From a virus (Duplodnaviria; Caudoviricetes), in the IMG/VR virus record IMGVR_UViG_3300021376_000006: a stretch of DNA of 64,000 bases. The stretch is one strand, 5' to 3'. The translations under genes were made by a program, and so were the position numbers. Within the stretch, counting starts at the first letter, position 1, and each line of letters opens with the position of its first letter. This document shows, piece by piece, positions 2,746-44,125 of this stretch. The notes under the pieces were generated by a model. It was not told the DNA's origin and ran no database searches. It was given only the letters and a program-made list of their open reading frames with translations.

Positions 2746-3818
2746 AATAAATGTATTTTATTTTGTATTATTTGATTAATGTCATTAAACAATTCTGTCT
2801 TTATGCTTTTATAGGCACTAGGCCAAGACCAAAAAAGATTTTGGTTATGTTCTAGTATAGGTAAAATTTCACGATGTAATTTTTCTAATTTGTTCACTGA
2901 CCAAGTTGACATTTCTAAAAGTAAATGAAAAATAGCTTCTAGTCTGTAATTTCCTGCTAAACTATCGTAATCTTCATCCCAAAAATTAGCAAAAGTTTGA
3001 AATCCTAAATCTTGTAACATTTTTAGAGAACCAGGATTGCCGTGTAAAATAAATGGGTGCCCAAACACTATAGGTTTAAAAATTTTTTCTGTAAAATATG
3101 GAAACGGTTGATCGTCATAGGTTTCAAATACTACAGAACAAAATGTATCTTCATAGTATTTTTTATCTCCTATAGACCAATCATTTATTTCAAATTTGTC
3201 CCCCTTAATTGTAAACGGTATATTATTATGCAGTTTGTGTAAATCTAGATTTTTACAGAACCATGCGGTATGACTACTTAGCATTTCTTCGGATATTTCG
3301 TCGTAAGACTTATATTTTGATCTTTCAAGCTCTCCTAAATAACTAAAATATGATTTTTCGATTAAATTAAATTTTACAAAAAAATAATATAGTGATTGTC
3401 TTGCTACAGATGCTCTGTTATTAAGAGAAAGAAAATGAAATTTGATATTTTTTTTTAATTCTACCTTTTGAAAATGGTCAGTATAATAGTTGTAGATAAG
3501 TGGTTGATACAAGAAAGAAAAAAAATCTTGATATTCATCGAAAAGAGATTGAGGATATTTGTGAGAGTGGACAATAATGTAATAATTTTTTAATTTTCCA
3601 GTCATTTCATAATGACTTTTGCTATTAGCTAAAATTTCTTCGATCCAGTCATAAGTATGATATTCTAAATAAAGTAAGATGATAATTTTGCCTTCTATGT
3701 CGGCAAAAGAGTTCATAGTATCATCATTTGGATCGTGCGTTTGTAAAACAAAAACTTTATCGCTGGTGATTTTAAAATCATCTAATAATGTAGGAACGCT
3801 ACACATTTGCGCGGTCAT
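2742..3818 (-). CDS. Hypothetical protein with glycosyltransferase-like C-terminus
   Basis: 358 aa AT-rich ORF; FETY...YFTEKIFKPI...HPF segment resembles GT10-like C-terminal motif; function is inference. Confidence 0.55.
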   Translation of the reverse strand: MTAQMCSVPTLLDDFKITSDKVFVLQTHDPNDDTMNSFADIEGKIIILLYLEYHTYDWIEEILANSKSHYEMTGKLKNYYIIVHSHKYPQSLFDEYQDFFSFLYQPLIYNYYTDHFQKVELKKNIKFHFLSLNNRASVARQSLYYFFVKFNLIEKSYFSYLGELERSKYKSYDEISEEMLSSHTAWFCKNLDLHKLHNNIPFTIKGDKFEINDWSIGDKKYYEDTFCSVVFETYDDQPFPYFTEKIFKPIVFGHPFILHGNPGSLKMLQDLGFQTFANFWDEDYDSLAGNYRLEAIFHLLLEMSTWSVNKLEKLHREILPILEHNQNLFWSWPSAYKSIKTELFNDINQIIQNKIHLL

Positions 3819-4729
3819 ACAGCCATCCGGGCCTTGATAGCACCATGGCTTTGATATCCTTCGAGTCGAATATCAGACATGGTAAATTTTGTAATATCAG
3901 TTATCTCAGGATTGAGCCACAATTGCGGTGCAGGCAATGGTTCACGTGTCAACTGTTCTTTTACTTGCTCTACATGATCTAGGTATATGTGTGCGTCGCC
4001 TAGAACGTGAACAAACTCTCCTACATCCAAATCACACACTTGTGCAATCATTGCTGTTAGTAGCGAATAGCTGGCGATATTAAAAGGTACACCCAAAAAC
4101 ATATCGCAGGATCGCTGATACATCTGGCACGACAATCTTCCATCTGCTACATAAAACTGTGCAAAACAATGACACGGTGGCAGGGCCATTTGATCTAATT
4201 CTCCAGGATTCCATGCAGTTAATATGTGTCGTCGTCCGTGCAGATCTTGCTTAATACCGTCGATTAAATTTCGTAGTTGATCGACTTCTTTAATTTCAAC
4301 GTTATTGCCTACTCTTCGGTAAGTGCTTCCAAACCCGTCTTTGAAAGATCCTTCTGTTTCGCGTTCTTTGATAGTACGCCAATGTCTCCACTGTACTCCG
4401 TACACACGACCTAGATCTCCTTCAAATTGGGCCCGCGATCGCCAATATGGTGCTAGTGCATTGGGCGTCCATATAGTTACTGTACCATCCCGTGTGCCAT
4501 GCGTTATCTCAGCCAATCTACGTTCATCGCCTGAACCTTCAATCATCCATAATAGTTCGCCCACCACAGCATTCCATGCTAGTTTTTTTGTAGTTACAGC
4601 AGGAAAACCTTGACTTAAATCATAACGTTGCTGCATACCAAACTTGCTTATGGTACCTACACCCGTGCGATCATCTTTGCGTGTTCCTGTTTCTAATATA
4701 TCTTTAAGAACATTGTGGTATGTTTTCAT
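3815..4729 (-). CDS. thyA: Thymidylate synthase
   Basis: DRTGVGT, ELLW, ALPPCH catalytic Cys, QRSCDMFLGVPFNIASY, GDAHIYLDH. Confidence 0.97.
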   Translation of the reverse strand: MKTYHNVLKDILETGTRKDDRTGVGTISKFGMQQRYDLSQGFPAVTTKKLAWNAVVGELLWMIEGSGDERRLAEITHGTRDGTVTIWTPNALAPYWRSRAQFEGDLGRVYGVQWRHWRTIKERETEGSFKDGFGSTYRRVGNNVEIKEVDQLRNLIDGIKQDLHGRRHILTAWNPGELDQMALPPCHCFAQFYVADGRLSCQMYQRSCDMFLGVPFNIASYSLLTAMIAQVCDLDVGEFVHVLGDAHIYLDHVEQVKEQLTREPLPAPQLWLNPEITDITKFTMSDIRLEGYQSHGAIKARMAV

Positions 4730-8831: not shown

Positions 8832-9001
8832 CGTGCCATCCTTTCTTTCCTACAGGCTTCTTTTATTTCGTTAGTATAGTCCGGGCTGATTTCTGCAATG
8901 CTGCAATCAATTACTCGCCTATCTTCGGGGAAACTGTACAGGGCCACTACAACTGCGATAGCTACAGCCACAAGTACTAAAATAAATTCTTTCGATATCA
9001 T
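8828..9001 (-). CDS. Small membrane-anchored protein
   Basis: Start reassigned to MISKEF at 9001; hydrophobic N-terminus and two Cys. Confidence 0.65.
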   Translation of the reverse strand: MISKEFILVLVAVAIAVVVALYSFPEDRRVIDCSIAEISPDYTNEIKEACRKERMAR

Positions 9002-10248
9002 TATCGTCCTCTCGCAGCTTCTTCGTAGTGAGCCCAGATGCCCCACGGGGGTTCGCAGCCAGGATTGCCTTTAATGATCCAAACAGTTTCGCAATACTCT
9101 TTCTCGCCCCACTCACCGCACGGCATGCCGTCGGTAAACATGATAAACTTTTTTGGTTCAATGTTTTCTTGCTTCATGAACTCCCAATTGGCCATAAAGT
9201 CGGTACCGCCACCACCTGCTGGTTCGTAGTTTTCAATGTCTTCAATATTGTCCGACGTATAAGTTTTGACATTGTAAATTTCAGTGTCAAAGCACCATAG
9301 CGTGATTTTGTACTCGTCAAAGGCTTCCATAATGCCTTTAATCTCGCCAAGGAACGCTTTGCTATCGGCTTCACTAATACTACCCGACTGGTCCATAGCA
9401 ATACAGATATCAATCATGTCGCCAGGCTTGAGTCCGGGCATGATAGCATCCATGTGCCAACCTCGTCGACTAGGCCGCGCCCAAGTATAGTCGTTCTTGA
9501 TTACGGCTGTGATTTGTTGTTGTAGCAGTTCCTTCCAGCCAATTACAGGTGCAGTAATATCTTTGAGCAGTCGTTTAACACCCATTGGCAAGTTGCCTGC
9601 GCCTGCTGCCTGCGCCGCACTAATTACAGCACCTTTTATCTCATCGCGGATAGCCTGTGCTTCTTCTTTGCTTAGTCGAGGCTTACCCGAACCGTCTTTG
9701 CCTTCACCGTCGCTATCTTCTTCGAGGTGATCGTCTAGAATCATCTTCTCAAGTTGGTCCAAGTCTATCTTGTCTGCGTTCTCGTACAGATAGTCATATA
9801 CTTCTTCATAGCTTTGACCTTTAAACTTGTTGTCAAACAAGATAGGAACTACACTGATCTTTTCACCAATGCGCTGTTCTACAAGGTCTTGATTCACACA
9901 ATAGTCAGCAGCAATATTACTGAGACGCGGTTGACGATCGCCACGTCGGCCCATGTGATCATATACAGCATGTAGAATTTCGTGTCCGACAAGAAACTCA
10001 AGTTGCTTTAGCGGCATCTTGTTCACAAACTCGCTGTTGTAATAGAACTTGCGTCCGTCAGTTGCAGCGGTACCGCACCATTCATCCGCATTAGTTAGGG
10101 TCATTCGGGTAGCCAGCTGTCCAAAGAACGGAGCCTTGAGCAACAAGCCAATACGTGCAGTAGTCAGTTTCTCACGAGCCGCAGCATCTGTGCGCGGATA
10201 CGTAACGGTTACAACTTTTTCTTTGTCAATTATTGTAGATTCTGCCAT
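9001..10248 (-). CDS. Metallopeptidase-like + VWA-like domain protein (partner of MoxR ATPase)
   Basis: HEILH (HExxH), acidic linker, MIDAS-like DQSGS, GGGGTDF and FTDG motifs. Confidence 0.85.
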   Translation of the reverse strand: MAESTIIDKEKVVTVTYPRTDAAAREKLTTARIGLLLKAPFFGQLATRMTLTNADEWCGTAATDGRKFYYNSEFVNKMPLKQLEFLVGHEILHAVYDHMGRRGDRQPRLSNIAADYCVNQDLVEQRIGEKISVVPILFDNKFKGQSYEEVYDYLYENADKIDLDQLEKMILDDHLEEDSDGEGKDGSGKPRLSKEEAQAIRDEIKGAVISAAQAAGAGNLPMGVKRLLKDITAPVIGWKELLQQQITAVIKNDYTWARPSRRGWHMDAIMPGLKPGDMIDICIAMDQSGSISEADSKAFLGEIKGIMEAFDEYKITLWCFDTEIYNVKTYTSDNIEDIENYEPAGGGGTDFMANWEFMKQENIEPKKFIMFTDGMPCGEWGEKEYCETVWIIKGNPGCEPPWGIWAHYEEAARGR

Positions 10249-10274
10249 TTGTTATGCTCCTTAACTATATGTAT

Positions 10275-10303
10275 ATTATAGCGCAAAATGGATTTATAGT
10301 CAA
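10275..10303 (-). promoter_or_regulatory. Sigma70-type promoter of the vWA gene
   Basis: TTGACT-N17-TATAAT followed by AAGGAG. Confidence 0.8.
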
Positions 10304-10617
10304 ACCCATCTTAATGTTATGTGGCTTAGGATATTGCGATTCTGCACATATATGTATTGAGTATTTGGATAATCTCGATCCACGTGCCAACACCACGGCG
10401 GGTCGAACAATTCGTTATCTTTAAACTCCAAAACTGTATTCGCATAACTATCTCGCTCTGTGCTTAACGCGTATTGTTCAATCATCCACGACCTAAGTGT
10501 ATGAAAATTTCTATTGGCTGATTTATATGCATTAGGGCTATGGCCAATACGCAAGCGGTATTGCCAAAGTAAATGTCCGGTATATCTCTTGTTAAGTTTT
10601 TCAACAAAAAATTTCAT
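10300..10617 (-). CDS. Hypothetical protein
   Basis: 105 aa ORF. Confidence 0.65.
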   Translation of the reverse strand: MKFFVEKLNKRYTGHLLWQYRLRIGHSPNAYKSANRNFHTLRSWMIEQYALSTERDSYANTVLEFKDNELFDPPWCWHVDRDYPNTQYIYVQNRNILSHITLRWV

Positions 10618-10620
10618 AAT

Positions 10621-10654
10621 AAAAAGGAGGACTTACGGATCAAGATCCTGCCTC
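10621..10654 (-). terminator. Intrinsic terminator after MoxR ATPase
   Basis: GGAGG/CCUCC outer stem, GGAU-CUUG-AUCC inner hairpin, then UUUUAUU. Confidence 0.65.
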
Positions 10655-10673
10655 CGCCTCACACGCGACTCAA

Positions 10674-11777
10674 TTACTTGGTAGAACCAGCTGCTGCAAG
10701 AACATACTTGCCAAAACGCTGATGGAACTCATCAAAGCTTGGCATCTTGCCTGGAACCATTGGCAGATTGTATGTAGTAAGTGCAACTCTAGCACCCATG
10801 ACAGTGACTTCGGTTGTAAAATTATCCATCATGAATCGCAAGAAGTTATCCGCCATCTTATGAAACTCGGCAATCTTGTCCTTGTTCTTGGTGTGATAGT
10901 CTTGCAACTCGTAACACATACTAGTAGTCAACGAATACATAGCCGACACTTCTTTGGTCTTGAGTTCTTTAACCTTGCCTGCTAGAATGTCTTCGGGTTT
11001 GGGCAACGAACCAGCAACCTTGCGGTGAGCCATAAACTTGTGTGCAATACCCTCGCCTACACAGCCTGCAACAAGATCCGTAAGCTCTGAAGCTGGCACG
11101 CCTTCGTCATGACAGAACTCACTGGCAAAGGTCCAAGAACGCGGCGTAGCAAACGAGCGGCTATTACTACGCGGATCAAAGTCAAACATGTCTGCCTTAG
11201 CAAACGACAGATAACCAACAACATCTGCATGGATCTTGTTTTTAACAGCCCACGTCTGCCAAGATTCAAAGTCCGGACGGACCTCCAAGTGTACAAAGCG
11301 ATTGGCTAGCGGACTAGGCATACGATAAGTGACACCTTTATCGCTATCTCTATTACCCGCAGCCACCATCACTACATTGTCGGGCAGTGTGTACTTGCCG
11401 ATTCGGCGATTGAGAATCAGCTGATATGCTGCCGCTTGTACAGCCGGTGCCGCTGAATTCATCTCATCCAATAGCAATACTACAATCGGATACTGAGCCG
11501 CTAGCTCGGCGTCAGGCAAATCAATAGGTGGTGCCCAATCCATCAGACCCTTGTCCTTGTTATAGAACGGGATACCACGCATGTCAGTGGGCTCCATCTG
11601 CGATAGACGCAGGTCGATCATGTAGCCGCCTAGCTCGTCACAAATGTCAGCGATCACTTCACTTTTGCCAACACCGGGCGGTCCCCATAGGAACATGGGT
11701 CGCTTGTGTTTAAACGAGCGTAAAATACGGCTACGTGCCTCTTCAGGCGTGACCGTACGAGTTTCAGTTACAGCCAT
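10674..11777 (-). CDS. MoxR-like AAA+ ATPase
   Basis: Walker A GPPGVGKS, Walker B LLLDE, AAGNR, SPLANRF. Confidence 0.92.
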   Translation of the reverse strand: MAVTETRTVTPEEARSRILRSFKHKRPMFLWGPPGVGKSEVIADICDELGGYMIDLRLSQMEPTDMRGIPFYNKDKGLMDWAPPIDLPDAELAAQYPIVVLLLDEMNSAAPAVQAAAYQLILNRRIGKYTLPDNVVMVAAGNRDSDKGVTYRMPSPLANRFVHLEVRPDFESWQTWAVKNKIHADVVGYLSFAKADMFDFDPRSNSRSFATPRSWTFASEFCHDEGVPASELTDLVAGCVGEGIAHKFMAHRKVAGSLPKPEDILAGKVKELKTKEVSAMYSLTTSMCYELQDYHTKNKDKIAEFHKMADNFLRFMMDNFTTEVTVMGARVALTTYNLPMVPGKMPSFDEFHQRFGKYVLAAAGSTK

Positions 11778-35992: not shown

Positions 35993-36427
35993 TTATTTAA
36001 GAGTAGATCTCAACATCCATGAATGTTTTGCATGGGCATCTTGTCTGCTTGCTAGAAAATCACTTAGGCCATGTTGTCCTAATTCTTCAGCAGCTTGAAA
36101 CACGATTCGAAACATTTCTTGCATCTTGTCGCTGTCTTGTAATAATTCTAGTAGCATGGACTCCGCAGGCAGAATATTAGTTTCGTCATCAACCAAACTG
36201 AGTACACTAAAACGCTCAAAAGAACCTGGAGTATATGAACCAGTCGCTCTTATTTCTTCAGCAAATTTGTCAATGCTGCTGTACACTTCTTCATAAATTT
36301 TCGCAAACAATTCGTGATATTGTGGAAAATTAGGCCCTTCCACATTCCAATGAAAATAGTGTGCTTTGAGGTAAAAAGCATACTCACTGGCAAATGCTAT
36401 TTTAAGAGCTTGTTTTAATGCGTCCAT
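35993..36427 (-). CDS. dps: Dps/ferritin-like DNA protection protein
   Basis: KAHYFHWNVEGPNFPQYHELF, DKFAEEIRA, WMLRS. Confidence 0.93.
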   Translation of the reverse strand: MDALKQALKIAFASEYAFYLKAHYFHWNVEGPNFPQYHELFAKIYEEVYSSIDKFAEEIRATGSYTPGSFERFSVLSLVDDETNILPAESMLLELLQDSDKMQEMFRIVFQAAEELGQHGLSDFLASRQDAHAKHSWMLRSTLK

Positions 36428-36449: not shown

Positions 36450-36596
36450 TTATCTGCCTTGCCCTTGATAGGCTTTATGACTTCTACGCTTACTTTTGTT
36501 CATAGCACTAGTCTTGGGTCTGCGTCCGCCTTGGCTGGTGGATTTGACCACGTGAGCTATACTTTTTTTGTTTGTTTGTTGTCCTGGTTTAGCCAT
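36450..36596 (-). CDS. 48 aa highly basic protein
   Basis: Read manually: MAKPGQQTNKKSIAHVVKSTSQGGRRPKTSAMNKSKRRSHKAYQGQGR, preceded by AAGGAG. Confidence 0.75.
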   Translation of the reverse strand: MAKPGQQTNKKSIAHVVKSTSQGGRRPKTSAMNKSKRRSHKAYQGQGR

Positions 36597-36611: not shown

Positions 36612-37301
36612 TTATTTAAACAGTTTGCTTTTACCGTAATGTTCGTCGTTAACCGTATCGGAACTTTTTTCATACATTACGGTGTCTGTGTCGCCCAAAC
36701 GCCATTTGGGATTTTGTTCTACTACATATTTTTTAGTGCATACTTTAAAATCTGGAAACTTCATGTCGCGTGGGTTGCTGGCAGCATCAAAAAACAAGCA
36801 TCTATTGTTTGGTTGTGCTGCATATTGACCGCTGTCTAGTTCTATGAAATTAAAACTCTTATGGTCTTCTGGCCATTCACTGTATCCAGTGTCTATGATG
36901 TTGTGATTAGGATGAGCATGATCCACAGTAAACATGTAATTGCCTGAGTACATGTTTTTATCTTTGGCATAAAATTTACAACTTAAATTTCTTAAAAATG
37001 CTTTTTGTATCACAGTCATATCATAATCAAAGCAATCCCAGATTTGCAAGGTATCTAGATTTAAAAAACTTGCAGTATCAAGAAGGTTTGTGCGTGATAC
37101 AAACGCATGCAGTGGTAATTTATCGTACAGTGCTCCGTAGTTGGGCAAGTAGGCTTCAATTCTAAAAGCTTGTCCTCTTATGCTTTTGATAGATACCCAT
37201 ATACACGGCTCATATTCGCCGTGTCCCTTTTCAAAATCATAGAGAAATTCTCGTCTGATATAACAGTGTACAGGTGGTGTGTTAGCTACTAGAAATGACA
37301 T
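36612..37301 (-). CDS. Hypothetical protein
   Basis: 229 aa ORF (ANTPP...LQIWDCF...QYAAQPNNRC). Confidence 0.85.
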   Translation of the reverse strand: MSFLVANTPPVHCYIRREFLYDFEKGHGEYEPCIWVSIKSIRGQAFRIEAYLPNYGALYDKLPLHAFVSRTNLLDTASFLNLDTLQIWDCFDYDMTVIQKAFLRNLSCKFYAKDKNMYSGNYMFTVDHAHPNHNIIDTGYSEWPEDHKSFNFIELDSGQYAAQPNNRCLFFDAASNPRDMKFPDFKVCTKKYVVEQNPKWRLGDTDTVMYEKSSDTVNDEHYGKSKLFK

Positions 37302-37310
37302 AGATTTGAC

Positions 37311-38279
37311 TTATGGTTGTTGATTTTTGTCTCCGGGGAATATTCTGCGAATTAAGCTTTGATTTTGCCTGTTGGGATCAATTACATTGCCCAATTCTTG
37401 ATGTACCAAAGCCTTGGGATCTTGTAACAATTTGCCTGCTGTAAAAATCGTACCTAACGCATCTAGTCCCTTTCGTAATGCACTAGGTTCTTGCTGTTGA
37501 TCCTGTGGTGGCTGTAATTCCGGAATACCTTGTTCTTTCATACCTCTAGTCTTGGTTGCTACATTCTTGGCTGGCCCTCTACGCTCTGGATTGGGATCTT
37601 CTCTGCGTTTTTTAGCTGCTGAGCTAGCACGACCTTTTTTACCAAGACTGTGTGCTTTGCTAGCAGGCAAGCATTTGGGTTTACCTTCGCCGCCGTCTCT
37701 GCCACCACACTCACCTCTAATTTTACCATCAGGACCGAACCGTACCCATTTTTCACGAAACCACTTTTTGAGATCTTCTTCTAGTTCGGACTCTGACATT
37801 TTTACACAGTTTGGAACCTGGCGGGAACCTTTTTTCTTCATACCCTGTTGTTGATAACCATCCCAGCATTTTTCGTCTAGTTGTTCTTCATTTGTTTTCT
37901 TAATACTATTAATAAATTTTCTATAAACACTTGCAGCTTCAGTTTTTCCTGCAGCTTTTGCTCTTTGTTCCATTGCTACCGCTGCTTGTATTTTATGTGC
38001 ATGACTTTTGCCACTATTACGAATTTTACTTACACTTGCTTTTGCATCCTCTGCAGTGGCAAATTTTAATCCTTGAATGGTACCTTTTGGATTTTCATCT
38101 GTATATAAGTCACTGTGTTTTTTACTATTAGCAGGTTGTCCTGGCTTTCTAGGTATTCTTTGTTCTTCGTTTGTTTTTTTATTTTTGACGCAATTAGGAT
38201 ATCGTTTACCAAACATGGTCTTCATGCCTTCTTTGTGGTAGCCTTTCCAACAGGCTTCTAGGAGTTCTCTGTATTTCAT
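37311..38279 (-). CDS. Modular basic protein, putative internal head protein precursor
   Basis: MKYRELLE N-terminus; two CW-x-GY...PNCV modules; modules bounded by xxE sites. Confidence 0.75.
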   Translation of the reverse strand: MKYRELLEACWKGYHKEGMKTMFGKRYPNCVKNKKTNEEQRIPRKPGQPANSKKHSDLYTDENPKGTIQGLKFATAEDAKASVSKIRNSGKSHAHKIQAAVAMEQRAKAAGKTEAASVYRKFINSIKKTNEEQLDEKCWDGYQQQGMKKKGSRQVPNCVKMSESELEEDLKKWFREKWVRFGPDGKIRGECGGRDGGEGKPKCLPASKAHSLGKKGRASSAAKKRREDPNPERRGPAKNVATKTRGMKEQGIPELQPPQDQQQEPSALRKGLDALGTIFTAGKLLQDPKALVHQELGNVIDPNRQNQSLIRRIFPGDKNQQP

Positions 38280-39058
38280 TTGGCATCTCCATCTTGGCCC
38301 ATTTGGCCATCAGTAGGCTCGGGTCCTGTGACTTGCACACGTGGCTGTGGTTTGCCATCTGGCCCCATTACAACTCGTTCGCTTAAAATATCTAAATATC
38401 GTCTAAAAAATCTTGGATCCATTTGTTGGTTATTTTGGTTTCTTACAGTGTCTTCTTGTACATTTCCGCCGCTATTAGTTTTTGTTTGTGCTGCTGGTTG
38501 AGCTGGTGGTTGAGGTTTGGCTGCGGCTGTAGGTGCTGCTGGTTGAGGTGCTGTTGCTGGTTGAGCTGGTTTAGCTGCGGCTGTAGGTGCTGCTGGTTGA
38601 GCTGGTTGTGTATCTAATACACGATTTATAGCATCAGCTGCTTTTGGTTGAGCCGGTTGAGCTGGTGCTGCTGTTGGTTGAGCTGGTGATGCAGCAACAT
38701 CATCATCTTTATACTGACTAAAATCAGGTTTTTGCGTAGGTTGTGTTTCTGGTGCTCTTCCCACACCAGCTAGTGCTAATCTTTTCTCTACGGTGTTCAG
38801 ATCTTGTTGCATGTCGCCAACTATGCTGTTTACTCTAGGATCAGTATAAGTTATTTGGTTCGGTCCACCTGTTGTTAAACTTTTATCAGTTTGCAAGGTA
38901 CCTGCTAATTTCTCTCTACTCTGTATGTCTTGTTGATTGGGTTGAATACCCAGTTGTGGCACTCCACCTTGACGGTACTCAGTGCCAGCAATATCCAACG
39001 GTGGTTGGGACTGCTCACTGAGAATGTCTAAATATCGTCTAAAAAATCTTGGATCCAT
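38276..39058 (-). CDS. Pro/Ala/Gln-rich protein with duplicated MDPRFFRRYLDILSE leader
   Basis: Leader at N-terminus and again near C-terminus; PAQP and AAPTAAAKP repeats. Confidence 0.78.
   Translation of the reverse strand: MDPRFFRRYLDILSEQSQPPLDIAGTEYRQGGVPQLGIQPNQQDIQSREKLAGTLQTDKSLTTGGPNQITYTDPRVNSIVGDMQQDLNTVEKRLALAGVGRAPETQPTQKPDFSQYKDDDVAASPAQPTAAPAQPAQPKAADAINRVLDTQPAQPAAPTAAAKPAQPATAPQPAAPTAAAKPQPPAQPAAQTKTNSGGNVQEDTVRNQNNQQMDPRFFRRYLDILSERVVMGPDGKPQPRVQVTGPEPTDGQMGQDGDAK
38391..38424. repeat. 34 bp exact direct repeat, copy 1
   Basis: TCTAAATATCGTCTAAAAAATCTTGGATCCATTT, identical to 39027-39060. Confidence 0.95.
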
Positions 39059-39060
39059 TT
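39027..39060. repeat. 34 bp exact direct repeat, copy 2
   Basis: Identical to 38391-38424. Confidence 0.95.
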
Positions 39061-39075
39061 AACTTTCCTTTAGAT

Positions 39076-40365
39076 TTATTTCTTGCTTTTGTTGCCCCAA
39101 TTAGCAGCACCTTTTTTGCGGCAGCGTACCAAGGCACCTGACGCATATGCCGACGGCCATACTTTATAACGACTTTTTACTTTGTGATAACAGGCATCCT
39201 GTTTTTCTGCTAGCATGCGATCCGCATAAGCAACGCGGCCACATTCAGGACATAGTGTGGCAGTTTCTGTGACAATATCATATCCAGCTCGACCTAGTTC
39301 TTCAACATAACGTTCACAATCCTCGTTAGCTACCACAGCCTTCATTTGTGTTTTTTCTTCCTTGGGCTTGTCAAAAACTTTAACTGATTTTACCTTACGG
39401 TAGGGATGTAGGTTTTTATTAAAAGCTGCTGTGGTCGCAGGATCAGGCGTTACTTTTTCTCCTGGCTTGTCAGGTTTGGCAAAGAGATAATCTTTTTTTC
39501 CTTTATCGAGCTCAATTTTATATTTCACCGAACCGTCTGCGCTTTCTTTTACCTTGTATTTCTTTTTAATTTCTGCCTGCCGTGCATGTCTCTCTTGGTC
39601 GTCTTCAATGTCATATGACTGACCTAGTTCTTTAAAATATTCAGGATCTGGTGCCCCACGCTTTTTGCGTAGTTCTTGATGACGCTTGTATAACTTGTCT
39701 TGCACGGATCCTTCATCTACTGTTTTGTTCTTGGGTTCTGGCCTTGGTTGCGGTGCTCTTGGAATTTCAGGAATGGCAAATCCACCTTCACGCATGGCAG
39801 AGATACGCTGTTCGGCAATCATGATCAAGTCGCGCATTTCTTCTATGCTTTCGCAGTTCCATCTGCGTAAGGCCTTGTTGATTGGGCTATCTGGATTGCG
39901 TTTGGTTTTGGCACTGGCACGAGATTTTTTCATACCACTCATTCTGGCACAGAAACTCTTACGACGCTTGGCACTCTTGGAACCTTTCTTTAGTTTGCTG
40001 GGCTTGGTGGTCACTGCTGTTTGCAATTTACTACCGGGGTTTTCTCTGCGATAGGCCTTCACTGCCTTGCGACTCATGCCCGGGGTTTTGTCTCTACGAT
40101 TGACCTTTTTCCAGTCTTCATCTAATGGATCATCCACCTTTTTAGTTGGATAGTGTAGATCTAAGCTTCGAGCTCGCATACCGCTGACCACAGACCAGCC
40201 CATTTCTCTAGCACGATTTTCAGCAAATCGTCGGCCTGAACTTTTGTGGCTCCAAGTATCTTTGATTTCTTTTGTGTCTGGATCATAGGCATAAAAGTCA
40301 TCATCTAGAAAGCGTGGTTCACTGCCTTCATTTAATTTTTTACTAAATATATCGTTTACGAACAT
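39076..40365 (-). CDS. Modular basic protein, putative internal head protein precursor
   Basis: Modules SFCARM...RRWNC, CPECG, ACYHKVKSRYKVWPSAYASGALVRC separated by LNE/LDE/VDE/LAE-type sites. Confidence 0.78.
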   Translation of the reverse strand: MFVNDIFSKKLNEGSEPRFLDDDFYAYDPDTKEIKDTWSHKSSGRRFAENRAREMGWSVVSGMRARSLDLHYPTKKVDDPLDEDWKKVNRRDKTPGMSRKAVKAYRRENPGSKLQTAVTTKPSKLKKGSKSAKRRKSFCARMSGMKKSRASAKTKRNPDSPINKALRRWNCESIEEMRDLIMIAEQRISAMREGGFAIPEIPRAPQPRPEPKNKTVDEGSVQDKLYKRHQELRKKRGAPDPEYFKELGQSYDIEDDQERHARQAEIKKKYKVKESADGSVKYKIELDKGKKDYLFAKPDKPGEKVTPDPATTAAFNKNLHPYRKVKSVKVFDKPKEEKTQMKAVVANEDCERYVEELGRAGYDIVTETATLCPECGRVAYADRMLAEKQDACYHKVKSRYKVWPSAYASGALVRCRKKGAANWGNKSKK

Positions 40366-40369
40366 AATT

Positions 40370-41674
40370 TTAAACCGCCTGTTGTCTTAGTGCTGCAATT
40401 TGTGCAGTTAAATCTTCAATCTGCTTTTTGATTTGTGTTTTTTGTGCTGACATTTGTTGCATGGCCATGGTTTTTTCAACAGGATTGGCACCTTGGGGAA
40501 ATTGTTGATTTAGGTCTGCCAACTGTGCTCGAGCTGCTTGCAGTTGTGCAACCAGTTGAGCTATCTGGCCTTGAATCTGTTGTTTGGCTGCTTTGCGTTC
40601 TTGCCCTTTTGCAAATTCTTCTGCGGGATTTCTAGCTGTGTCGTTGCCAATGCCAGATCCAGGAGCACCATATTCTGTAATAGGAGGAGTTTCCTTCCAG
40701 TTGGGCAATGGAGCATGATATCGACCTTTGTCTTGACCAGGTACTTTGATGTCTTGTATGGTGTCTGGTTCTTTAGGCATAAATTCTTTACCACGTTTAA
40801 CAGGAGATTGAATACCTTTGATTAGCTCTTGAGTAATTGGTGTTTCTTTGCCTGTGAAGGTTCTATACCATTTGTCATGGTAATACGAACCAATTGGTAC
40901 TAGCTCTTCCCTGCCATCTGGGTATATATGAATAAACCTTACTTTATCGTAGGCATCACTGCCAACCGGTCTTTTCATTCTAACAGTAACTTTTTCGCCT
41001 TCTTCGGAATCGTTGTCTTCTTGCACATTTTCGCTGATACGAGGATCTCCTCTTCCTCGAAAATATTGAGGAGGCAAACTTTTTTTTACCGGTCTTCCCC
41101 TAAAATAGTCAGTGTTATCTTGCCCAGGTATAATAGTATCTCGATCGGTAGGAACATCAGGTACCGGTATTGGGGGGGATTTCGGTGCTGGCCCAGGGTT
41201 TTCAAAGTTTTGTTTCAGTTGATCGTACATTTGATCAACCATGGGATCTCGTGGTGCAGGTCGGCCTGTAAAGTCTTCAATCCAATCTTGCCATGGACCG
41301 CTGTACCTGTCAAGTACTACTGGACCATTTGTCCCCGGAACGGTTATAATCCATTTGTGTGGATTTTCTGGATCATCGGGGTCTCGATCCAGAGAATGCT
41401 TTTCGTAGTCTTGTTCTGCCAGTTTGTATTCTTGCCATTCTTGAAATAAATCTCTTTTGACAGGATTGCTGTTGATCAATTGACCCAGCTCTTTTAAAAA
41501 ACTTTCTGACTCTTCTACACTTTCAGCCGCACCGTCACCTACCATCTTGTTACGAATTTTTTTGGCATTATCTGTGCCTTTTAGGTATCCGGGCCATCGT
41601 GGACCTGTTGGTTTCTTTTCGGCTGCTGTCATGGCATCCATTTTTTCCAACAGGTTTCGTAAATCACTCATCAA
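40370..41674 (-). CDS. Modular hypothetical protein with C-terminal coiled coil
   Basis: 434 aa; MSDLRNLLE N-terminus; Pro-rich modules. Confidence 0.78.
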   Translation of the reverse strand: MMSDLRNLLEKMDAMTAAEKKPTGPRWPGYLKGTDNAKKIRNKMVGDGAAESVEESESFLKELGQLINSNPVKRDLFQEWQEYKLAEQDYEKHSLDRDPDDPENPHKWIITVPGTNGPVVLDRYSGPWQDWIEDFTGRPAPRDPMVDQMYDQLKQNFENPGPAPKSPPIPVPDVPTDRDTIIPGQDNTDYFRGRPVKKSLPPQYFRGRGDPRISENVQEDNDSEEGEKVTVRMKRPVGSDAYDKVRFIHIYPDGREELVPIGSYYHDKWYRTFTGKETPITQELIKGIQSPVKRGKEFMPKEPDTIQDIKVPGQDKGRYHAPLPNWKETPPITEYGAPGSGIGNDTARNPAEEFAKGQERKAAKQQIQGQIAQLVAQLQAARAQLADLNQQFPQGANPVEKTMAMQQMSAQKTQIKKQIEDLTAQIAALRQQAV

Positions 41675-42372
41675 TAGATGCCTTTGCCCACTGTGACTTT
41701 TTTAGATTTGTAACTGTTGCCCATTTTCTTTGGCACTCCACTTGAAGGTTTGTGACCAGGACCAGACATGGATGTTGCCACTGCACCTGCACTGCTGGCA
41801 CCACCTGTGGCCATCTCTGACAGTTGTTGGCCTTCTGCCATGCCTTGTTCACCCAGGCTGGCTTGTCCTGCCACAGCTCTACCTGTTGGCTTAGAACTGA
41901 TGCCAGTACGGCTTGACTTCATCTTTTCGCCACCGCCACCAATGTGTCTACTTCCGCCTAAACGTTCTGATTTTCTTGGCTTGTGTGTTTTACCTTTTTG
42001 CACTTGGCCGCCCTTGGCCAAAAAATCCTTGACAGCATCGTCGTAGTCATCTTCAACCAGCAGTTGGTCTAGAGCGTAATCAGCAGCTGATTCAGCGAAT
42101 GCCATCATTTCTGGCTCTTGACTTACTGCTTCGTACTTCATGTAATCTCTTACACTTTCTAGATACTGGCTTGCAAGAGTCAGTTTGCTTTGTACCCAAC
42201 CTTCTAGGCCTTCCATTTCGCTTACATCTCTAAGCAAACGATGTATTTCAATTGCTGCCTGTGCTGCTGAATACATCTGACTTCTAGCCATTTGCACTTC
42301 GTGATCTCTATGCATATCATCGGCTTCTTGAGCGATTATGCTGTTTTCTACTATAAATTCTGTTGGTTTCAT
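41671..42372 (-). CDS. Modular protein with T4 capsid-targeting-like N-terminus
   Basis: MKPTEFIVE resembles T4 internal-protein CTS (MKTYQEFIAE); TAAATA element at 42394-42399. Confidence 0.78.
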   Translation of the reverse strand: MKPTEFIVENSIIAQEADDMHRDHEVQMARSQMYSAAQAAIEIHRLLRDVSEMEGLEGWVQSKLTLASQYLESVRDYMKYEAVSQEPEMMAFAESAADYALDQLLVEDDYDDAVKDFLAKGGQVQKGKTHKPRKSERLGGSRHIGGGGEKMKSSRTGISSKPTGRAVAGQASLGEQGMAEGQQLSEMATGGASSAGAVATSMSGPGHKPSSGVPKKMGNSYKSKKVTVGKGIY

Positions 42373-42396
42373 GTGTGTTTCCTGATAATGTAGTAT

Positions 42397-42876
42397 TTAT
42401 TTTTTGGCGTTCAACTGCCTGGCTCTTTGTACCAATGGAATATAGGTATCATAATTTTTAACTTGTACAACCTTCCTAGGACGTTCAGCGGGTGGTGCCA
42501 ACGGAGTTGGTCGCGAAACCTTTGCTAGATCAATTAACAAATTATGTGTGTGTGTTTCGCGACGATTCAACAAATGATCTACAACAAATCTCCATTCAAT
42601 ACGTGCGCCATTTGTTTTTAACAAATTTTTGTTAACTGGTTGTTGGTCAACCTTAAAGTGTTCGAGTTCAAAACGACTGCGATTATCTAAATTTTCTAAA
42701 CAAAAAGTATGTACACCAGTGTCTAGGTCACAATACATGTGTTCGGTGATATAGTTCTGATAGCTAGGCCATCCAAATGTACGTTCGACCAGCATTTCGT
42801 TGTCAACATAAATTCTGTAAATTGGGGGATTGTCGCTCCAGTGGCTGTAAACATCAACCTCCAATTTAGTATGCAT
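42397..42876 (-). CDS. Hypothetical protein
   Basis: 159 aa ORF. Confidence 0.75.
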   Translation of the reverse strand: MHTKLEVDVYSHWSDNPPIYRIYVDNEMLVERTFGWPSYQNYITEHMYCDLDTGVHTFCLENLDNRSRFELEHFKVDQQPVNKNLLKTNGARIEWRFVVDHLLNRRETHTHNLLIDLAKVSRPTPLAPPAERPRKVVQVKNYDTYIPLVQRARQLNAKK

Positions 42877-44096
42877 TATTTTTTTCTACCTTGGCAATGA
42901 GCTCGCTGGCTAAAGCCTCGAGGACGATTGCAGTTGATGCTGCGTTTGTATTTGGCGCTCCATTTTTCTTTCAATGTGGCTATTTGTTCTTTCAATTGTT
43001 CTACACTGTCGACTAAATGCATTTTTTTAAGTTGTCTGTTTACTTCACCGGGACTTATATCATTGGTCAGACTGTGACTATATCTTGGATCGCGGGCCTG
43101 TTTTTTATTTGCAATAACACCTACACCAGCAGTTTCATAGTAACGATCGCGACTGCGTTTTTTAACTTCCGACTCCAGACCATAATTTTCACCGCCCCAC
43201 TTCAGCATAGGATCGTCCATTCTGGCTGTAGCAGGATCGCTTTTGATTCTTTTGCCTAATTCAGTGTCATGTACATGACCTTTAAAGTCACCGGGCATCT
43301 TCTCTGTTGGTTTATCCCAAGGCGCCTGATTACCAATCACATTGTCTTGACCAGGTGGGTATTTGCCAGTATTGTATTTGTCTTGTTTGTACAATTGGTA
43401 AGTTAATTTGCCGGTTTGTTTTTGAAGCGGAGTAAGTTCTGCTTCCTGATCCTCAGTAACAGTTTGTGGTATTTTATCCAGTATTCTACCAAGTTCAGCA
43501 TCATCTCTACCGTACATTTGTAACAAATATTCACTACGTAATTTAGGTGTGTCTCTAACTGCATTCCATGCTGCTCGTGCAGCTGTGCCATGACTGACAT
43601 CTACCTGTTGTCCGTTTATGGAGATAACTTTTTGACGCTCGTCTGCAATTATTACATACCCGTGCTTGTCAGCAGTTGTACATTCGTCCAAGCTTTTGAA
43701 CGTTTTAAAATAACCCGGATTGCCATCTTTCTTTACGCTGTCTGGGCGCAGGCGGTCTCGATCCGGAGTACCGACTGCTGCTATAAAAATTGTATTAGCA
43801 GGATTGAATTGCTGTTCTGGTAATTTGTAAGGATTGGTTACTTCCACAATACGATCACTGGGTACTCCAGCTGCGTTCATGAATACTGTTTTGTCTGAAA
43901 AATTAAAAGGGCTTTTAGGAAGTTCTGTTTTATTGCTAGTTGCAATATAGACGCTGTCGCGCCCGAACTTGTTTTGTAGGCTTTGAAATACTTCTCTGTG
44001 CCCGAGGTGAAAAGGTTGAAATCGGCCCGGGTATAGTACAACCAATTGCGGGCCAGCTTCAGCTACATACGATTCAAAAAGATCAGCAATATGCAT
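42876..44096 (-). CDS. HxGH nucleotidyltransferase (cytidyltransferase-like) with C-terminal peptide modules
   Basis: YPGRFQPFHLGH, SPFNFSDK; C-terminal KWSAKYKRSINC...AHC; TAAATA at 44118-44123. Confidence 0.8.
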   Translation of the reverse strand: MHIADLFESYVAEAGPQLVVLYPGRFQPFHLGHREVFQSLQNKFGRDSVYIATSNKTELPKSPFNFSDKTVFMNAAGVPSDRIVEVTNPYKLPEQQFNPANTIFIAAVGTPDRDRLRPDSVKKDGNPGYFKTFKSLDECTTADKHGYVIIADERQKVISINGQQVDVSHGTAARAAWNAVRDTPKLRSEYLLQMYGRDDAELGRILDKIPQTVTEDQEAELTPLQKQTGKLTYQLYKQDKYNTGKYPPGQDNVIGNQAPWDKPTEKMPGDFKGHVHDTELGKRIKSDPATARMDDPMLKWGGENYGLESEVKKRSRDRYYETAGVGVIANKKQARDPRYSHSLTNDISPGEVNRQLKKMHLVDSVEQLKEQIATLKEKWSAKYKRSINCNRPRGFSQRAHCQGRKK

Positions 44097-44125
44097 GAAA
44101 CATCCATTATATTGCTGTATTTAGC

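What the first reader, a model, noticed from the sequence alone, without database searches (positions are those of the whole stretch)
37311..44096. Block of putative capsid-targeted polyproteins built from cationic, Cys-paired peptide modules
Seen: N-termini MKYRELLE, MDPRFFRRYLDILSE, MFVNDIFSKKLNE, MSDLRNLLE, MKPTEFIVE, MHIADLFE. Internally, short Lys/Arg-rich modules each with two Cys (CWKGY..PNC and CWDGY..PNC, ECGG..PKC, SFCARM..WNC, ACYH..VRC, INC..AHC) are separated by hydrophobic-x-Glu sites (LLE, LDE, LEE, LNE, VDE, LAE, LKE). Established: T4 internal proteins carry an MKTYQEFIAE-type capsid targeting sequence, and prohead protease gp21 cleaves after (I/L)-x-E. Inference: precursors are packaged, cut into many small peptides and injected with the DNA; a shuffled peptide library with possible DNA-condensing or anti-defence roles.
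Basis: partly seen in the sequence, partly recalled or inferred. Interest (0 to 1): 0.75.

Follow-up and report, generated by a model that had tools for sequence, protein, structure and literature searches.

The report
Protease-cut head cargo polyproteins of phages
A large freshwater phage carries a row of genes that most likely encode proteins loaded into the virus head and cut there into small, mostly positively charged pieces, and the same building blocks occur in thousands of aquatic phages, including abundant marine cyanophages in whose particles they have been detected.

Summary
Seven co-oriented minus-strand genes lie in 37311-44096. Six start with a short leader ending in Leu/Ile-x-Glu. 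Cationic two-Cys modules occur in A, C and the tail of G only; B, D and E have no Cys and are mildly acidic.

About 20 related viral contigs keep the flanks (84-92% identity), the leaders and the C-termini. The middles differ up to 3.7-fold in length, and inserts sit between hydrophobic-x-Glu (hxE) sites.

In 269 diverse homologues, 514 of 545 distinct module starts follow an hxE (17% expected). Homology blocks end exactly at the Glu.

The same modules build the T4-like cyanophage protein T4-GC119. That protein and a leader-bearing cytidylyltransferase were found in S-SM1 virions (Sullivan 2010).

Podoviruses without a T4-type prohead protease carry the DUF6321 module as a separate small gene, with no leader.

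A complete 364-kb distant relative holds both an S77 prohead protease and such a polyprotein.

Cleavage, packaging and injection are inferred, not shown. The window genome's own protease could not be reached.

Verdict: a new variant of the T4 internal-protein/capsid-targeting system. Other first-stage notes of this scan flag similar leaders elsewhere in this genome.

The parts
42876..44096 (-). Gene G, 406 aa. It has a leader MHIADLFE|SYVAE| that precedes the fold. A cytidylyltransferase-like HxGH domain follows (aa 21-86 match Pfam). A lineage-variable insert spans aa 216-321. The basic two-Cys tail M5 (aa 378-406, KWSAKYKRSINC..AHCQGRKK) ends the protein.
   Evidence: Pfam PF01467 scores 26.4 bits against a cut-off of 21. 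The alignment of 16 orthologues shows the insert between TVTE| and RYYE|. The tail matches cyanophage T4-GC119-type genes at 52-79% identity.
44118..44123 (-). TAAATA promoter-like box, 21 nt upstream of the ATG of G.
   Evidence: Sequence read. Of 36 minus-strand TAAATA hits, 16 lie within 45 nt upstream of a start, a zone that makes up 7% of the sequence.
42397..42876 (-). Gene F, 159 aa. It has no leader-like N-terminus and no family match. Its start overlaps the stop of G.
   Evidence: The first 100 or so residues are conserved in relatives.
42394..42399 (-). TAAATA box, 21 nt upstream of the ATG of E. It overlaps the stop codon of F and probably starts the E-D-C-B-A transcription unit.
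   Evidence: The genes E to A are stop/start coupled or only 3-17 nt apart.
41671..42372 (-). Gene E, 233 aa. Leader MKPTEFIVE|, then a conserved acidic helical domain (aa 10-107), a variable insert (aa 108-186) and a conserved Gly/Ala/Ser-then-basic tail (aa 187-233).
   Evidence: Alignment of 17 orthologues of 153-418 aa: the insert always lies between LLVE|-type and [LIV]xE|[MTS]A[TS][GA]G sites. The helical domain is a module of the S-SM2 T4-GC119 protein.
40370..41671 (-). Gene D, 433 aa from the ATG. Leader MSDLRNLLE|, then a variable middle (aa 55-333) and a conserved C-terminal coiled-coil domain that begins after PITE|YGAPG.
   Evidence: Alignment of 16 orthologues of 165-433 aa. No Pfam or PHROG family and no phage-isolate match.
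39076..40365 (-). Gene C, 429 aa. Leader MFVNDIFSKKLNE|. DUF6321 module after LDE| (aa 84-176). Three-helix module after VDE| (aa 219-274). CPEC stretch, then module M3 after MLAE| (aa 388-429).
   Evidence: PF19846 E=1.4e-10. At least 8000 homologues. AlphaFold2 gives pTM 0.33, with islands at about aa 101-190, 221-270 and 391-420 and linkers under pLDDT 50 at 13-95, 196-215, 279-290 and 321-343.
38276..39058 (-). Gene B, 260 aa. Leader MDPRFFRRYLDILSE|, a Pro/Ala/Gln-rich low-complexity body, and a second in-frame copy of the leader at aa 213-227. It is present in only a few relatives.
   Evidence: A 46-nt direct repeat lies at 38379-38424 and 39015-39060 (91% identity, start codon included).
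37311..38279 (-). Gene A, 322 aa. Leader MKYRELLE|, then M1 (CWKGY..PNC, aa 9-32), M6 (aa 41-128), a second M1 after QLDE| (aa 137-163), M2 after ELEE| (aa 169-249) and a tail.
   Evidence: Relatives are 189-222 aa and lack aa 4-132. Their leader aligns with the internal QLDE|. M6 is 81% identical to S-SM2. In the M2 alignment of 111 sequences the junction Glu is invariant.

Best explanation
These genes encode precursors of head-internal (virion cargo) proteins of a roughly 340-kb T4-superfamily phage.

Proposed steps:
1. An N-terminal peptide of 8-15 residues ending in Leu/Ile-x-Glu works like the T4 capsid targeting sequence and brings each precursor into the prohead core.
2. The T4-type (S77) prohead protease removes the leader.
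3. The protease also cuts at exposed hydrophobic-x-Glu junctions between modules.
4. This frees small, very basic, two-Cys domains (M1-M6, DUF6321), an HxGH nucleotidyltransferase and helical or coiled-coil pieces. These stay with the packed DNA and probably leave with it at infection.
5. Because every module brings its own junction, modules can be inserted, lost or moved between genes and phages without harm. That would explain the hypervariable middles.

Shown here: the gene anatomy, the leaders, the module mosaic, hxE at the junctions, and disordered linkers.

Shown by others for homologues: presence in virions.

Inferred: targeting, cleavage, retention, ejection, and what the pieces do. 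Charge neutralisation of DNA and early host take-over are both possible.
For: - Leaders: six of seven genes carry them, and they are conserved in about 20 related contigs while protein lengths vary up to 3.7-fold. MKPTEFIVE resembles the T4 sequence MKTYQEFIAE (PMC8442874; rules for that sequence in PMC9026906).
- Junctions: inserts are bracketed by hxE. Homology blocks end exactly at hxE. 514 of 545 module starts follow an hxE, against 17% expected. A portable junction QGVAE| recurs between unrelated modules.
- Internal junctions align with N-terminal leaders of relatives.
- The AlphaFold2 model of C is beads on a string. The junction sites (E13, E83, E193/E200/E218, E274) lie within or at the edges of its low-confidence linkers.
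- Cyanophage T4-GC119 proteins are the same modules in other orders.
- T4-GC119 (13 peptide counts), the cytidylyltransferase T4-GC190 (25) and gp21 (8) were found in S-SM1 virions (PMC3037559, Table S8).
- The cyanophage enzyme starts MKSFSQFLTE| or MKSLFQFLNE|, and S-SM2 gp108 starts MKTLKQFLKE|.
- Three podoviruses carry DUF6321 as a leaderless gene of 84-94 aa; in P-SCSP1h it lies next to the capsid gene. T7-type phages have no prohead protease (from knowledge; I ran no protease search on them).
- The S77 protease is present in Phosso, P-SSM2 and Bellamy, and in a complete 364-kb distant relative that also has a syntenic polyprotein.
- In that relative the capsid protein has LLAE|SSAG, which looks like a maturation site. 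The protease family itself has an invariant L5 and E7.
Against: - No proteomic, N-terminal or expression data exist for this phage.
- The window genome's own protease and head genes could not be read.
- Some hxE sites lie inside conserved folded parts, for example WF[KR]E in M2 and MLAE between a CPEC pair and M3. Not all can be cut, so the motif alone overpredicts.
- Several cyanophage T4-GC119 proteins, including the virion-detected S-SM1 gp115, have no clear N-terminal leader. Targeting may therefore not depend on one.
- About a quarter of other window ORFs match the loose motif (my hand count from the listing). One of them looks like ThyA by its N-terminal residues (from knowledge).
- The junction contexts are related by descent.
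- The TAAATA box also precedes non-structural genes (Dps, ClpA), so late timing is not established.
Confidence: 0.6

Rival explanations
1. They are virion-internal multi-domain proteins that stay whole, or lose only the leader as T4 IPI-III do. The hxE at module starts would then be a structural feature of linkers or module caps, or a scar of how modules are joined, and not a cleavage site.
For: - T4 internal proteins are cut only once, next to the targeting sequence (PMC8442874).
- Some hxE lie inside folded parts.
- In some M1 instances the junction reads LDPK instead of LDEK, so part of the motif is module-intrinsic.
- S-SM1 proteomics reports only peptide counts, not fragment ends.
Against: - Seven unrelated modules share the same P3/P1 pattern at their starts, while P2 and the upstream sequence vary.
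- The invariant junction Glu of M2 sits before the first structural element of the M2 model, outside the folded core.
- The podovirus versions are separate small genes, which suggests the free small protein is the working form.
- QGVAE| resembles the predicted capsid maturation site LLAE|.
- phiKZ-type phages cut cargo at many sites (PMC9026906).
Confidence: 0.2
2. They are not packaged at all. They would be intracellular, modular nucleic-acid-binding or regulatory proteins made during infection, and the leader-like N-termini and hxE junctions would have nothing to do with the prohead protease.
For: - The modules are very basic.
- Some relatives are fused to sigma-70 region 4.
- The block lies among chaperone, Dps and sugar genes, not head genes.
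- The TAAATA box is shared with non-structural genes.
Against: - Homologous proteins were detected in purified S-SM1 virions.
- In cyanophages the genes lie between gp15, gp16 and gp17.
- In podovirus P-SCSP1h the module gene lies between the capsid and tail-tube genes.
- Conserved paired Cys fit an extracellular, oxidising setting better than the cytoplasm (inference).
Confidence: 0.12
3. D and E, and perhaps B, are accessory scaffold or core proteins. They would be cut to pieces and expelled during head maturation, like T4 gp22, gp67 and gp68. They would have no role after assembly, and only A, C and G would be cargo.
For: - D and E are acidic to neutral, helical or coiled-coil, free of Cys, and dotted with hxE sites.
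- Scaffold proteins next to the protease in related phages have the same look and the same leaders.
- T4 core proteins are degraded at such sites (PMC9026906).
Against: - The helical domain of E is one module of the cyanophage virion protein T4-GC119.
- D and E carry lineage-specific inserts of up to 280 residues, which is odd for a scaffold.
- The related head modules that I could read already hold scaffold-like genes next to the protease.
Confidence: 0.08

Closest known systems
Phage T4 internal proteins IPI, IPII, IPIII and Alt, with the capsid targeting sequence (MKTYQEFIAE) and prohead protease gp21
   Same: - A short N-terminal leader ending in hydrophobic-x-Glu.
- Basic cargo of varied sequence.
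- The T-even internal-protein genes are poorly conserved and carry targeting-like sequences (PMC9026906).
- An enzyme as cargo (Alt there, the HxGH nucleotidyltransferase here).
   Different: - No sequence similarity to the T4 internal proteins: no T4 internal-protein family appeared in the Pfam or PHROG scans.
- Here the precursors are long strings of several conserved mini-modules with internal junction sites, whereas T4 internal proteins are cut once.
- The modules are shared across thousands of aquatic phages.
- Nothing has been tested at the bench.
Cyanophage T4-GC119 'structural protein' and the T4-GC190 cytidylyltransferase (Sullivan et al. 2010, PMC3037559)
   Same: - The same modules (M1, M2, M3, M5, M6, DUF6321 and the helical domain of E) at roughly 36-83% identity.
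- The same hxE junctions.
- Very variable gene length (276-2985 nt).
- A nucleotidyltransferase with a targeting-like leader.
- Both proteins were detected in S-SM1 virions.
   Different: - In cyanophages one or two genes lie in the gp15-gp17 region; here six genes lie between a glycosyltransferase and a Dps gene in a roughly 340-kb phage.
- The transferase domains are only distantly alike (PHROG E=1.8e-6).
- The paper lists these proteins as virion proteins of unknown role. I found no published reading of them as polyproteins.
Inner-body and ejection proteins of phiKZ and SPN3US, cut by their prohead proteases
   Same: Giant phages load many proteins into the head. These are cut after Glu at short motifs, often at several sites per protein, and enter the host (PMC9026906; abstracts of PMC7411985 and PMC10052503).
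   Different: - A different motif (a small residue at P3).
- Unrelated proteins.
- No shared pool of small two-Cys basic modules.
- Those cases are backed by mass spectrometry and genetics.
Adenovirus core protein precursors pVII and pX (mu), cut by the viral protease (from my own knowledge, not checked here)
   Same: Basic DNA-associated peptides, made from precursors inside the capsid by the maturation protease.
   Different: An unrelated virus, protease and sequences. It is an analogy only.

Membership tests
T4-type capsid-targeted internal proteins | An N-terminal leader of about 10 residues ending in L/I-x-E. | tested here: met
   A, B, C, D, E and G have [LI]-x-E ending at residues 8-15, and F does not. 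The leaders are kept in the 11-16 distinct orthologues aligned for each of A, C, D, E and G. The rule is from PMC9026906.
T4-type capsid-targeted internal proteins | The genome encodes a T4-type (Peptidase_S77) prohead protease. | tested here: inconclusive
   No genome is held for the window. The five largest related fragments lack the family, but they are 15-38% complete. It is present in the nearest isolate Phosso and in cyanophages, and in a complete 364-kb distant relative that has a syntenic polyprotein.
T4-type capsid-targeted internal proteins | The leader is removed by the protease and the protein is present in mature heads. | not testable with these tools
   This needs virion proteomics. 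There is only indirect support from S-SM1 virion data for homologues.
T4-type capsid-targeted internal proteins | Sequence relationship to T4 IPI, IPII or IPIII. | tested here: not met
   No T4 internal-protein family appeared among the Pfam (E up to 0.1) or PHROG hits of the proteins.
DUF6321 (PF19846) | A score above Pfam's gathering cut-off. | tested here: met
   C residues 91-169: 42.1 bits against 28.5, E=1.4e-10.
DUF5872 (PF19197) | A score above Pfam's gathering cut-off. | tested here: not met
   A residues 144-187: 14.5 bits against 27.5.
Cytidylyltransferase-like HxGH nucleotidyltransferases (PF01467) | A score above the cut-off and an HxGH motif after the first strand. | tested here: met
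   G residues 21-86: 26.4 bits against 21. The sequence reads PGRFQPFHLGH. Only the first half of the profile is matched, and no substrate can be named.
Cyanophage T4-GC119 virion protein | The same module set joined by hxE, with DUF6321 as a frequent last module. | tested here: met
   tblastn of A, C, E and the tail of G hits the T4-GC119 genes of P-SSM2, S-SM1, S-SM2, Bellamy and S-CAM9. The architectures were read. Membership is at module level: the window's genes are not positional orthologues.

The most novel reading that the evidence does not exclude
Aquatic T4-superfamily phages, from marine cyanophages to freshwater jumbo phages, may share a cassette system. In it, prohead-protease sites act as universal joints, so any small protein or enzyme can be spliced into a head-loaded polyprotein, freed inside the capsid and delivered with the DNA. 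That would make a fast-shuffling library of injected mini-proteins: the conserved two-Cys basic domains plus enzymes such as nucleotidyltransferases, methyltransferase-like domains, pterin dehydratase, DUF192 and LysM. Podoviruses without the protease would encode the same pieces as separate genes.
Probability: 0.33. Interest if true: 0.85.

Novelty: new variant of a known kind. Interest (0 to 1): 0.7.

Why it matters
- Scale. The module proteins are very common: at least 8000 relatives of C (the cap of the search) and 3635 cluster representatives for A. All of those that carry a taxon label are viral.
- Where they occur. They are found in some of the most abundant phages of the sea, and nobody has said what they do.
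- What the reading would explain. If they are protease-cut head cargo, that would account for a hypervariable gene of cyanomyoviruses already seen in virions. It would also widen the T4 targeting-and-processing principle to strings of many modules. It would point to a large unexplored set of proteins that phages deliver into cells at the moment of infection. The very high conservation of some modules (M2: 81% mean column identity across distant phages) suggests a fixed partner, such as DNA or a capsid or host component.
- Testability. The idea can be tested now with cultured cyanophages and existing mass-spectrometry methods.

Tried and rejected
- The window genome's own protease and head genes could not be reached. 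No genome is held. PF03420 was absent from five related fragments of 15-38% completeness. A 341,902-bp contig that carries the block is not held for searching. Protease P0148 lies on a contig of almost the same length (337,895 bp), but the places shown for it came from other samples and could not be linked to this lineage.
- Megablast of the block against phage isolates found no match. D has no match in phage isolates even at protein level, and its direct search in viral contigs found nothing.
- The exact T4 late promoter TATAAATA is not enriched: 1 hit against 5.6 expected. Only the shorter TAAATA is enriched.
- The test of site conservation among orthologues told nothing, because the orthologues are too close for it to discriminate.
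- Fold searches with the M2 model (pLDDT 69) gave nothing. Foldseek against the PDB had no match at E<=0.001. VIA-align against 48,161 chains gave a best Z of 3.4. No fold or function can be assigned, and this does not show the fold is new.
- The Atlas search gave only viral clusters without a named function.
- No RNA holder was listed for the block.
- Literature searches for DUF6321 or DUF5872, for cyanophage internal proteins and for polyprotein readings found no prior description. The library lacks many subscription papers, for example the Syn9 and S-PM2 proteome papers.
- Rejected: a tail-fibre role, since nothing supports it.
- Set aside: a single 4-Cys zinc site formed by CPEC and M3, because cyanophage M3 copies lack the CPEC.

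Full report
**What is there.** The window is part of a large phage with nearly all genes on the minus strand.
- Its family-B DNA polymerase is nearest to that of the jumbo phages Phosso (50% identity) and Atu_ph07 (46%).
- Exactly the same protein C is found on 13 metagenome contigs, the longest 337,915 bp.
- The finding covers seven genes. In order of transcription they are G (42876-44096), F (42397-42876), E (41671-42372), D (40370-41671), C (39076-40365), B (38276-39058) and A (37311-38279).
- G/F and E/D/C/B/A are stop/start coupled or a few bases apart.
- A TAAATA box lies 21 nt before the ATG of G and of E. On the coding strand, 16 of 36 such boxes lie within 45 nt upstream of a start, a zone that makes up 7% of the sequence.

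**Check of the observation.** The six quoted N-termini are correct; F has none.
- By my own hand count from the listing, a strict [LI]-x-E within 16 residues is present in about one in ten other ORFs of the window.
- A looser version is present in about a quarter of them. One of those looks like thymidylate synthase by its first residues (from knowledge). The leader motif alone is therefore weak.
- The Cys pairs and the positive charge are real for A, C and the last 29 residues of G. B, D and E have no Cys and a pI of 5.1-6.3.

**Relatives show a mosaic with fixed ends.** A search with E found 24 viral contigs.
- In about 20 of them the block is syntenic between a glycosyltransferase and a PHROG 'ferredoxin' gene, which are 84-92% identical to the window.
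- Each block gene keeps its leader and its C-terminal part. Lengths differ widely: E 153-418 aa, D 165-433, C 237-874, A 189-322, G 300-406.
- In the alignments the inserts always lie between hxE sites:
  - E: LLVE| ... QLSE|MATGG.
  - D: SVEE| ... PITE|YGAPG.
  - G: TVTE| ... RYYE|TAGVG.
- The window's A carries an extra 129 residues. Its internal QLDE|KCWDGY aligns with the leader MKYRELLE|ACWDGY of the relatives.
- Short forms of C start with a leader just where the window's C has the internal VDE|GSVQ.
- B holds a second in-frame copy of its own leader, as a 46-nt direct repeat that includes the start codon.

**Statistics.**
- On 208 distinct homologues, right ends of homology blocks lie within 3 residues of an hxE cut in 306 of 638 cases (104.5 expected), with a sharp peak at distance 0.
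- Left ends start 1-6 residues before the cut, so they include the shared motif.
- On 269 more diverse proteins, I tested seven unrelated modules, using boundaries taken from the window. Each follows an hxE in nearly all distinct upstream contexts:
  - M1: 125 of 128.
  - M2: 106 of 113.
  - M3: 117 of 125.
  - DUF6321: 41 of 43.
  - M5: 49 of 50.
  - M6: 32 of 41.
  - The three-helix module: 44 of 46.
- Most of the listed exceptions for M2, DUF6321 and the three-helix module still have Glu at P1.
- Pooled, this is 514 of 545 against a background of 0.174.
- The contexts are related by descent, so the effect size is the result, not the P value.
- A junction QGVAE|(G/A/D/E) recurs between quite different neighbours.

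**Structure.** AlphaFold2 on C with 120 homologues gives pTM 0.33.
- Confident islands lie at about residues 101-190, 221-270, 347-360 and 391-420.
- They are separated by stretches under pLDDT 50 at 13-95, 196-215, 279-290 and 321-343.
- The junction sites E13, E83, E193/E200/E218 and E274 lie within or at the edges of those stretches.
- M2 alone is a small alpha/beta unit with a long basic helix. The two Cys lie just after strand 2 and within strand 3 (pLDDT 69).
- Across 111 cluster representatives the mean column identity of M2 is 81%, and the junction Glu is invariant.
- No solved fold resembles the M2 model.

**Link to cyanophages and to virions.**
- A, C, the helical domain of E and the tail of G hit one gene family of T4-like cyanophages. 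It lies between gp15, gp16 and gp17 and is called T4-GC119.
- Read out, P-SSM2 gp123, Bellamy gp122/123, S-CAM9 gp114, S-SM1 gp115 and S-SM2 gp108/109 are the same modules in different orders. Most are preceded by an hxE, for example IDE|EGLRDWF, IEE|GKKDACY, LDE|KCWKGY and FQE|SWSNKYK.
- Table S8 of Sullivan et al. 2010 lists the following as detected in purified S-SM1 virions:
  - T4-GC119, as a 'structural protein', with 13 peptide counts.
  - The cytidylyltransferase T4-GC190, with 25.
  - gp21, with 8.
- The cyanophage transferase begins MKSFSQFLTE| or MKSLFQFLNE|, and S-SM2 gp108 begins MKTLKQFLKE|. Both are close to the T4 sequence MKTYQEFIAE.
- In the window's G, 17 residues with two hxE sites precede the first strand of the fold.

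**Phages with and without the protease.**
- Peptidase_S77 is present in Phosso, P-SSM2 and Bellamy.
- The Phosso-type protease family itself starts MAxFLTE, with L5 and E7 invariant.
- A complete 364,247-bp viral genome with terminal repeats is a distant relative (ClpA 55% identity, glycosyltransferase about 44%). It has the protease next to a scaffold and a capsid protein with a likely maturation site, LLAE|SSAG.
- Elsewhere, that genome has a syntenic block DnaJ-ClpA-...-transferase-glycosyltransferase, followed by a 365-aa protein (MKINQIIVE|) and a 1140-aa polyprotein (MSNIFKGIKQLNE|).
- The polyprotein has QGVAE| junctions, an embedded methyltransferase-like domain and DUF6321 after VVDE|. 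Dps and three MRAxEFxxE| genes follow it.
- Three podoviruses (P-SCSP1h, Skadi-7, HTVC035P) carry DUF6321 as a separate gene of 84-94 residues with no leader. T7-type phages have no prohead protease (from knowledge; I ran no protease search on these genomes).
- In P-SCSP1h this gene lies between the capsid and tail-tube genes. It is followed by a second small basic gene whose sequence is the neighbouring module in the 1140-aa polyprotein.
- That is only three genomes, but the contrast is what the cleavage model predicts.

**What remains inference.** Nothing shows cleavage, packaging or ejection in this phage.
- Its own protease could not be read.
- Some hxE sites lie in folded parts and are probably not cut.
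- Several cyanophage T4-GC119 proteins lack a clear N-terminal leader, so entry into the head may also rest on the modules themselves.
- The role of the pieces is open. The high positive charge suggests DNA contact. The paired Cys suggest a disulfide or a metal site suited to life outside the cell.
- Partners seen fused to these modules in relatives suggest cargo that acts early in the host. They are Pterin_4a, DUF192, DUF5661, nucleotidyltransferases, LysM, sigma-70 region 4 and a Tat-like signal.

**Comparison and verdict.** The principle is that of T4: a targeting leader plus gp21 processing, with variable internal-protein genes. It is also that of phiKZ-type phages, which cut head cargo at many sites.
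- The new part is the form: long precursors built from a shared pool of small, highly conserved modules, each with its own junction. They are spread over thousands of aquatic phages.
- I found no paper that reads T4-GC119 in this way.
- I rate it a new variant of a known kind, with 0.6 confidence in the mechanism and interest 0.7.
- Other first-stage notes of this scan report many more leader-bearing genes elsewhere in the same genome. I could not check them.

Noticed in passing
window 38379-38424 and 39015-39060: A 46-nt direct repeat (91% identity, 34 nt exact) places a second in-frame copy of the leader of gene B, start codon included, 636 nt downstream. It looks like a recent fusion or duplication through leader homology.
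   Followed up: yes
window, minus strand, e.g. 44118-44123, 42394-42399, and upstream of the starts at 36427, 48754, 30263 and 13433: TAAATA boxes lie 5-34 nt upstream of 16 gene starts. This is strongly enriched. The full T4 late box TATAAATA is depleted instead (1 hit against 5.6 expected). The timing class of this promoter type is unknown.
   Followed up: partly
L130 (G006:C1:105000-124900) and L126: The complete 364-kb IMG/VR genome (IMGVR_UViG_3300043418_000114) has a syntenic block with a 1140-aa polyprotein that embeds a SAM-methyltransferase-like domain between ELAE| and QGVAE|. Its cytidylyltransferase homologue starts directly with the first strand and has no leader.
   Followed up: partly
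L046 1351-1769 (Prochlorococcus phage P-SCSP1h gp18 and gp19): Two small basic genes lie right after the capsid gene of a T7-like cyanophage. They match two adjacent modules of the jumbo-phage polyprotein, in the opposite order.
   Followed up: partly
window 41674-41814 (tail of E): The tail of E after QLSE| (MATGGASSAGAVATS...) resembles the N-terminal arm of the capsid protein of related phages after its predicted cut (SSAGTTTAGNIATL, TATAGGTAAGNIATL). I have no explanation.
   Followed up: no
L040 and L041 (head modules of Phosso and a relative): The protease, the scaffold-like proteins and neighbouring small genes all start with leaders of the same kind (MANFLTE|, MRASELFE|, MEKGLME|). The 419-aa scaffold-like protein of L041 ends in LRRLAGLE, a motif that another first-stage note reports in head proteins of the window's genome.
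   Followed up: partly
window 3815-4729: The N-terminus MKTYHNVLKDILE fits the loose leader motif. By its first residues it looks like an ordinary thymidylate synthase start (from knowledge, not searched). It is a warning against calling leaders by motif alone.
   Followed up: no
window 9001-11777: A DUF2201 metallopeptidase/VWA protein lies near an AAA ATPase gene. This pair is unrelated to the finding.
   Followed up: no
window 36450-36596: A small, very basic 48-aa ORF (MAKPGQQTNKK...) lies between the Dps gene and the gene at 36612-37301. I did not examine it.
   Followed up: no
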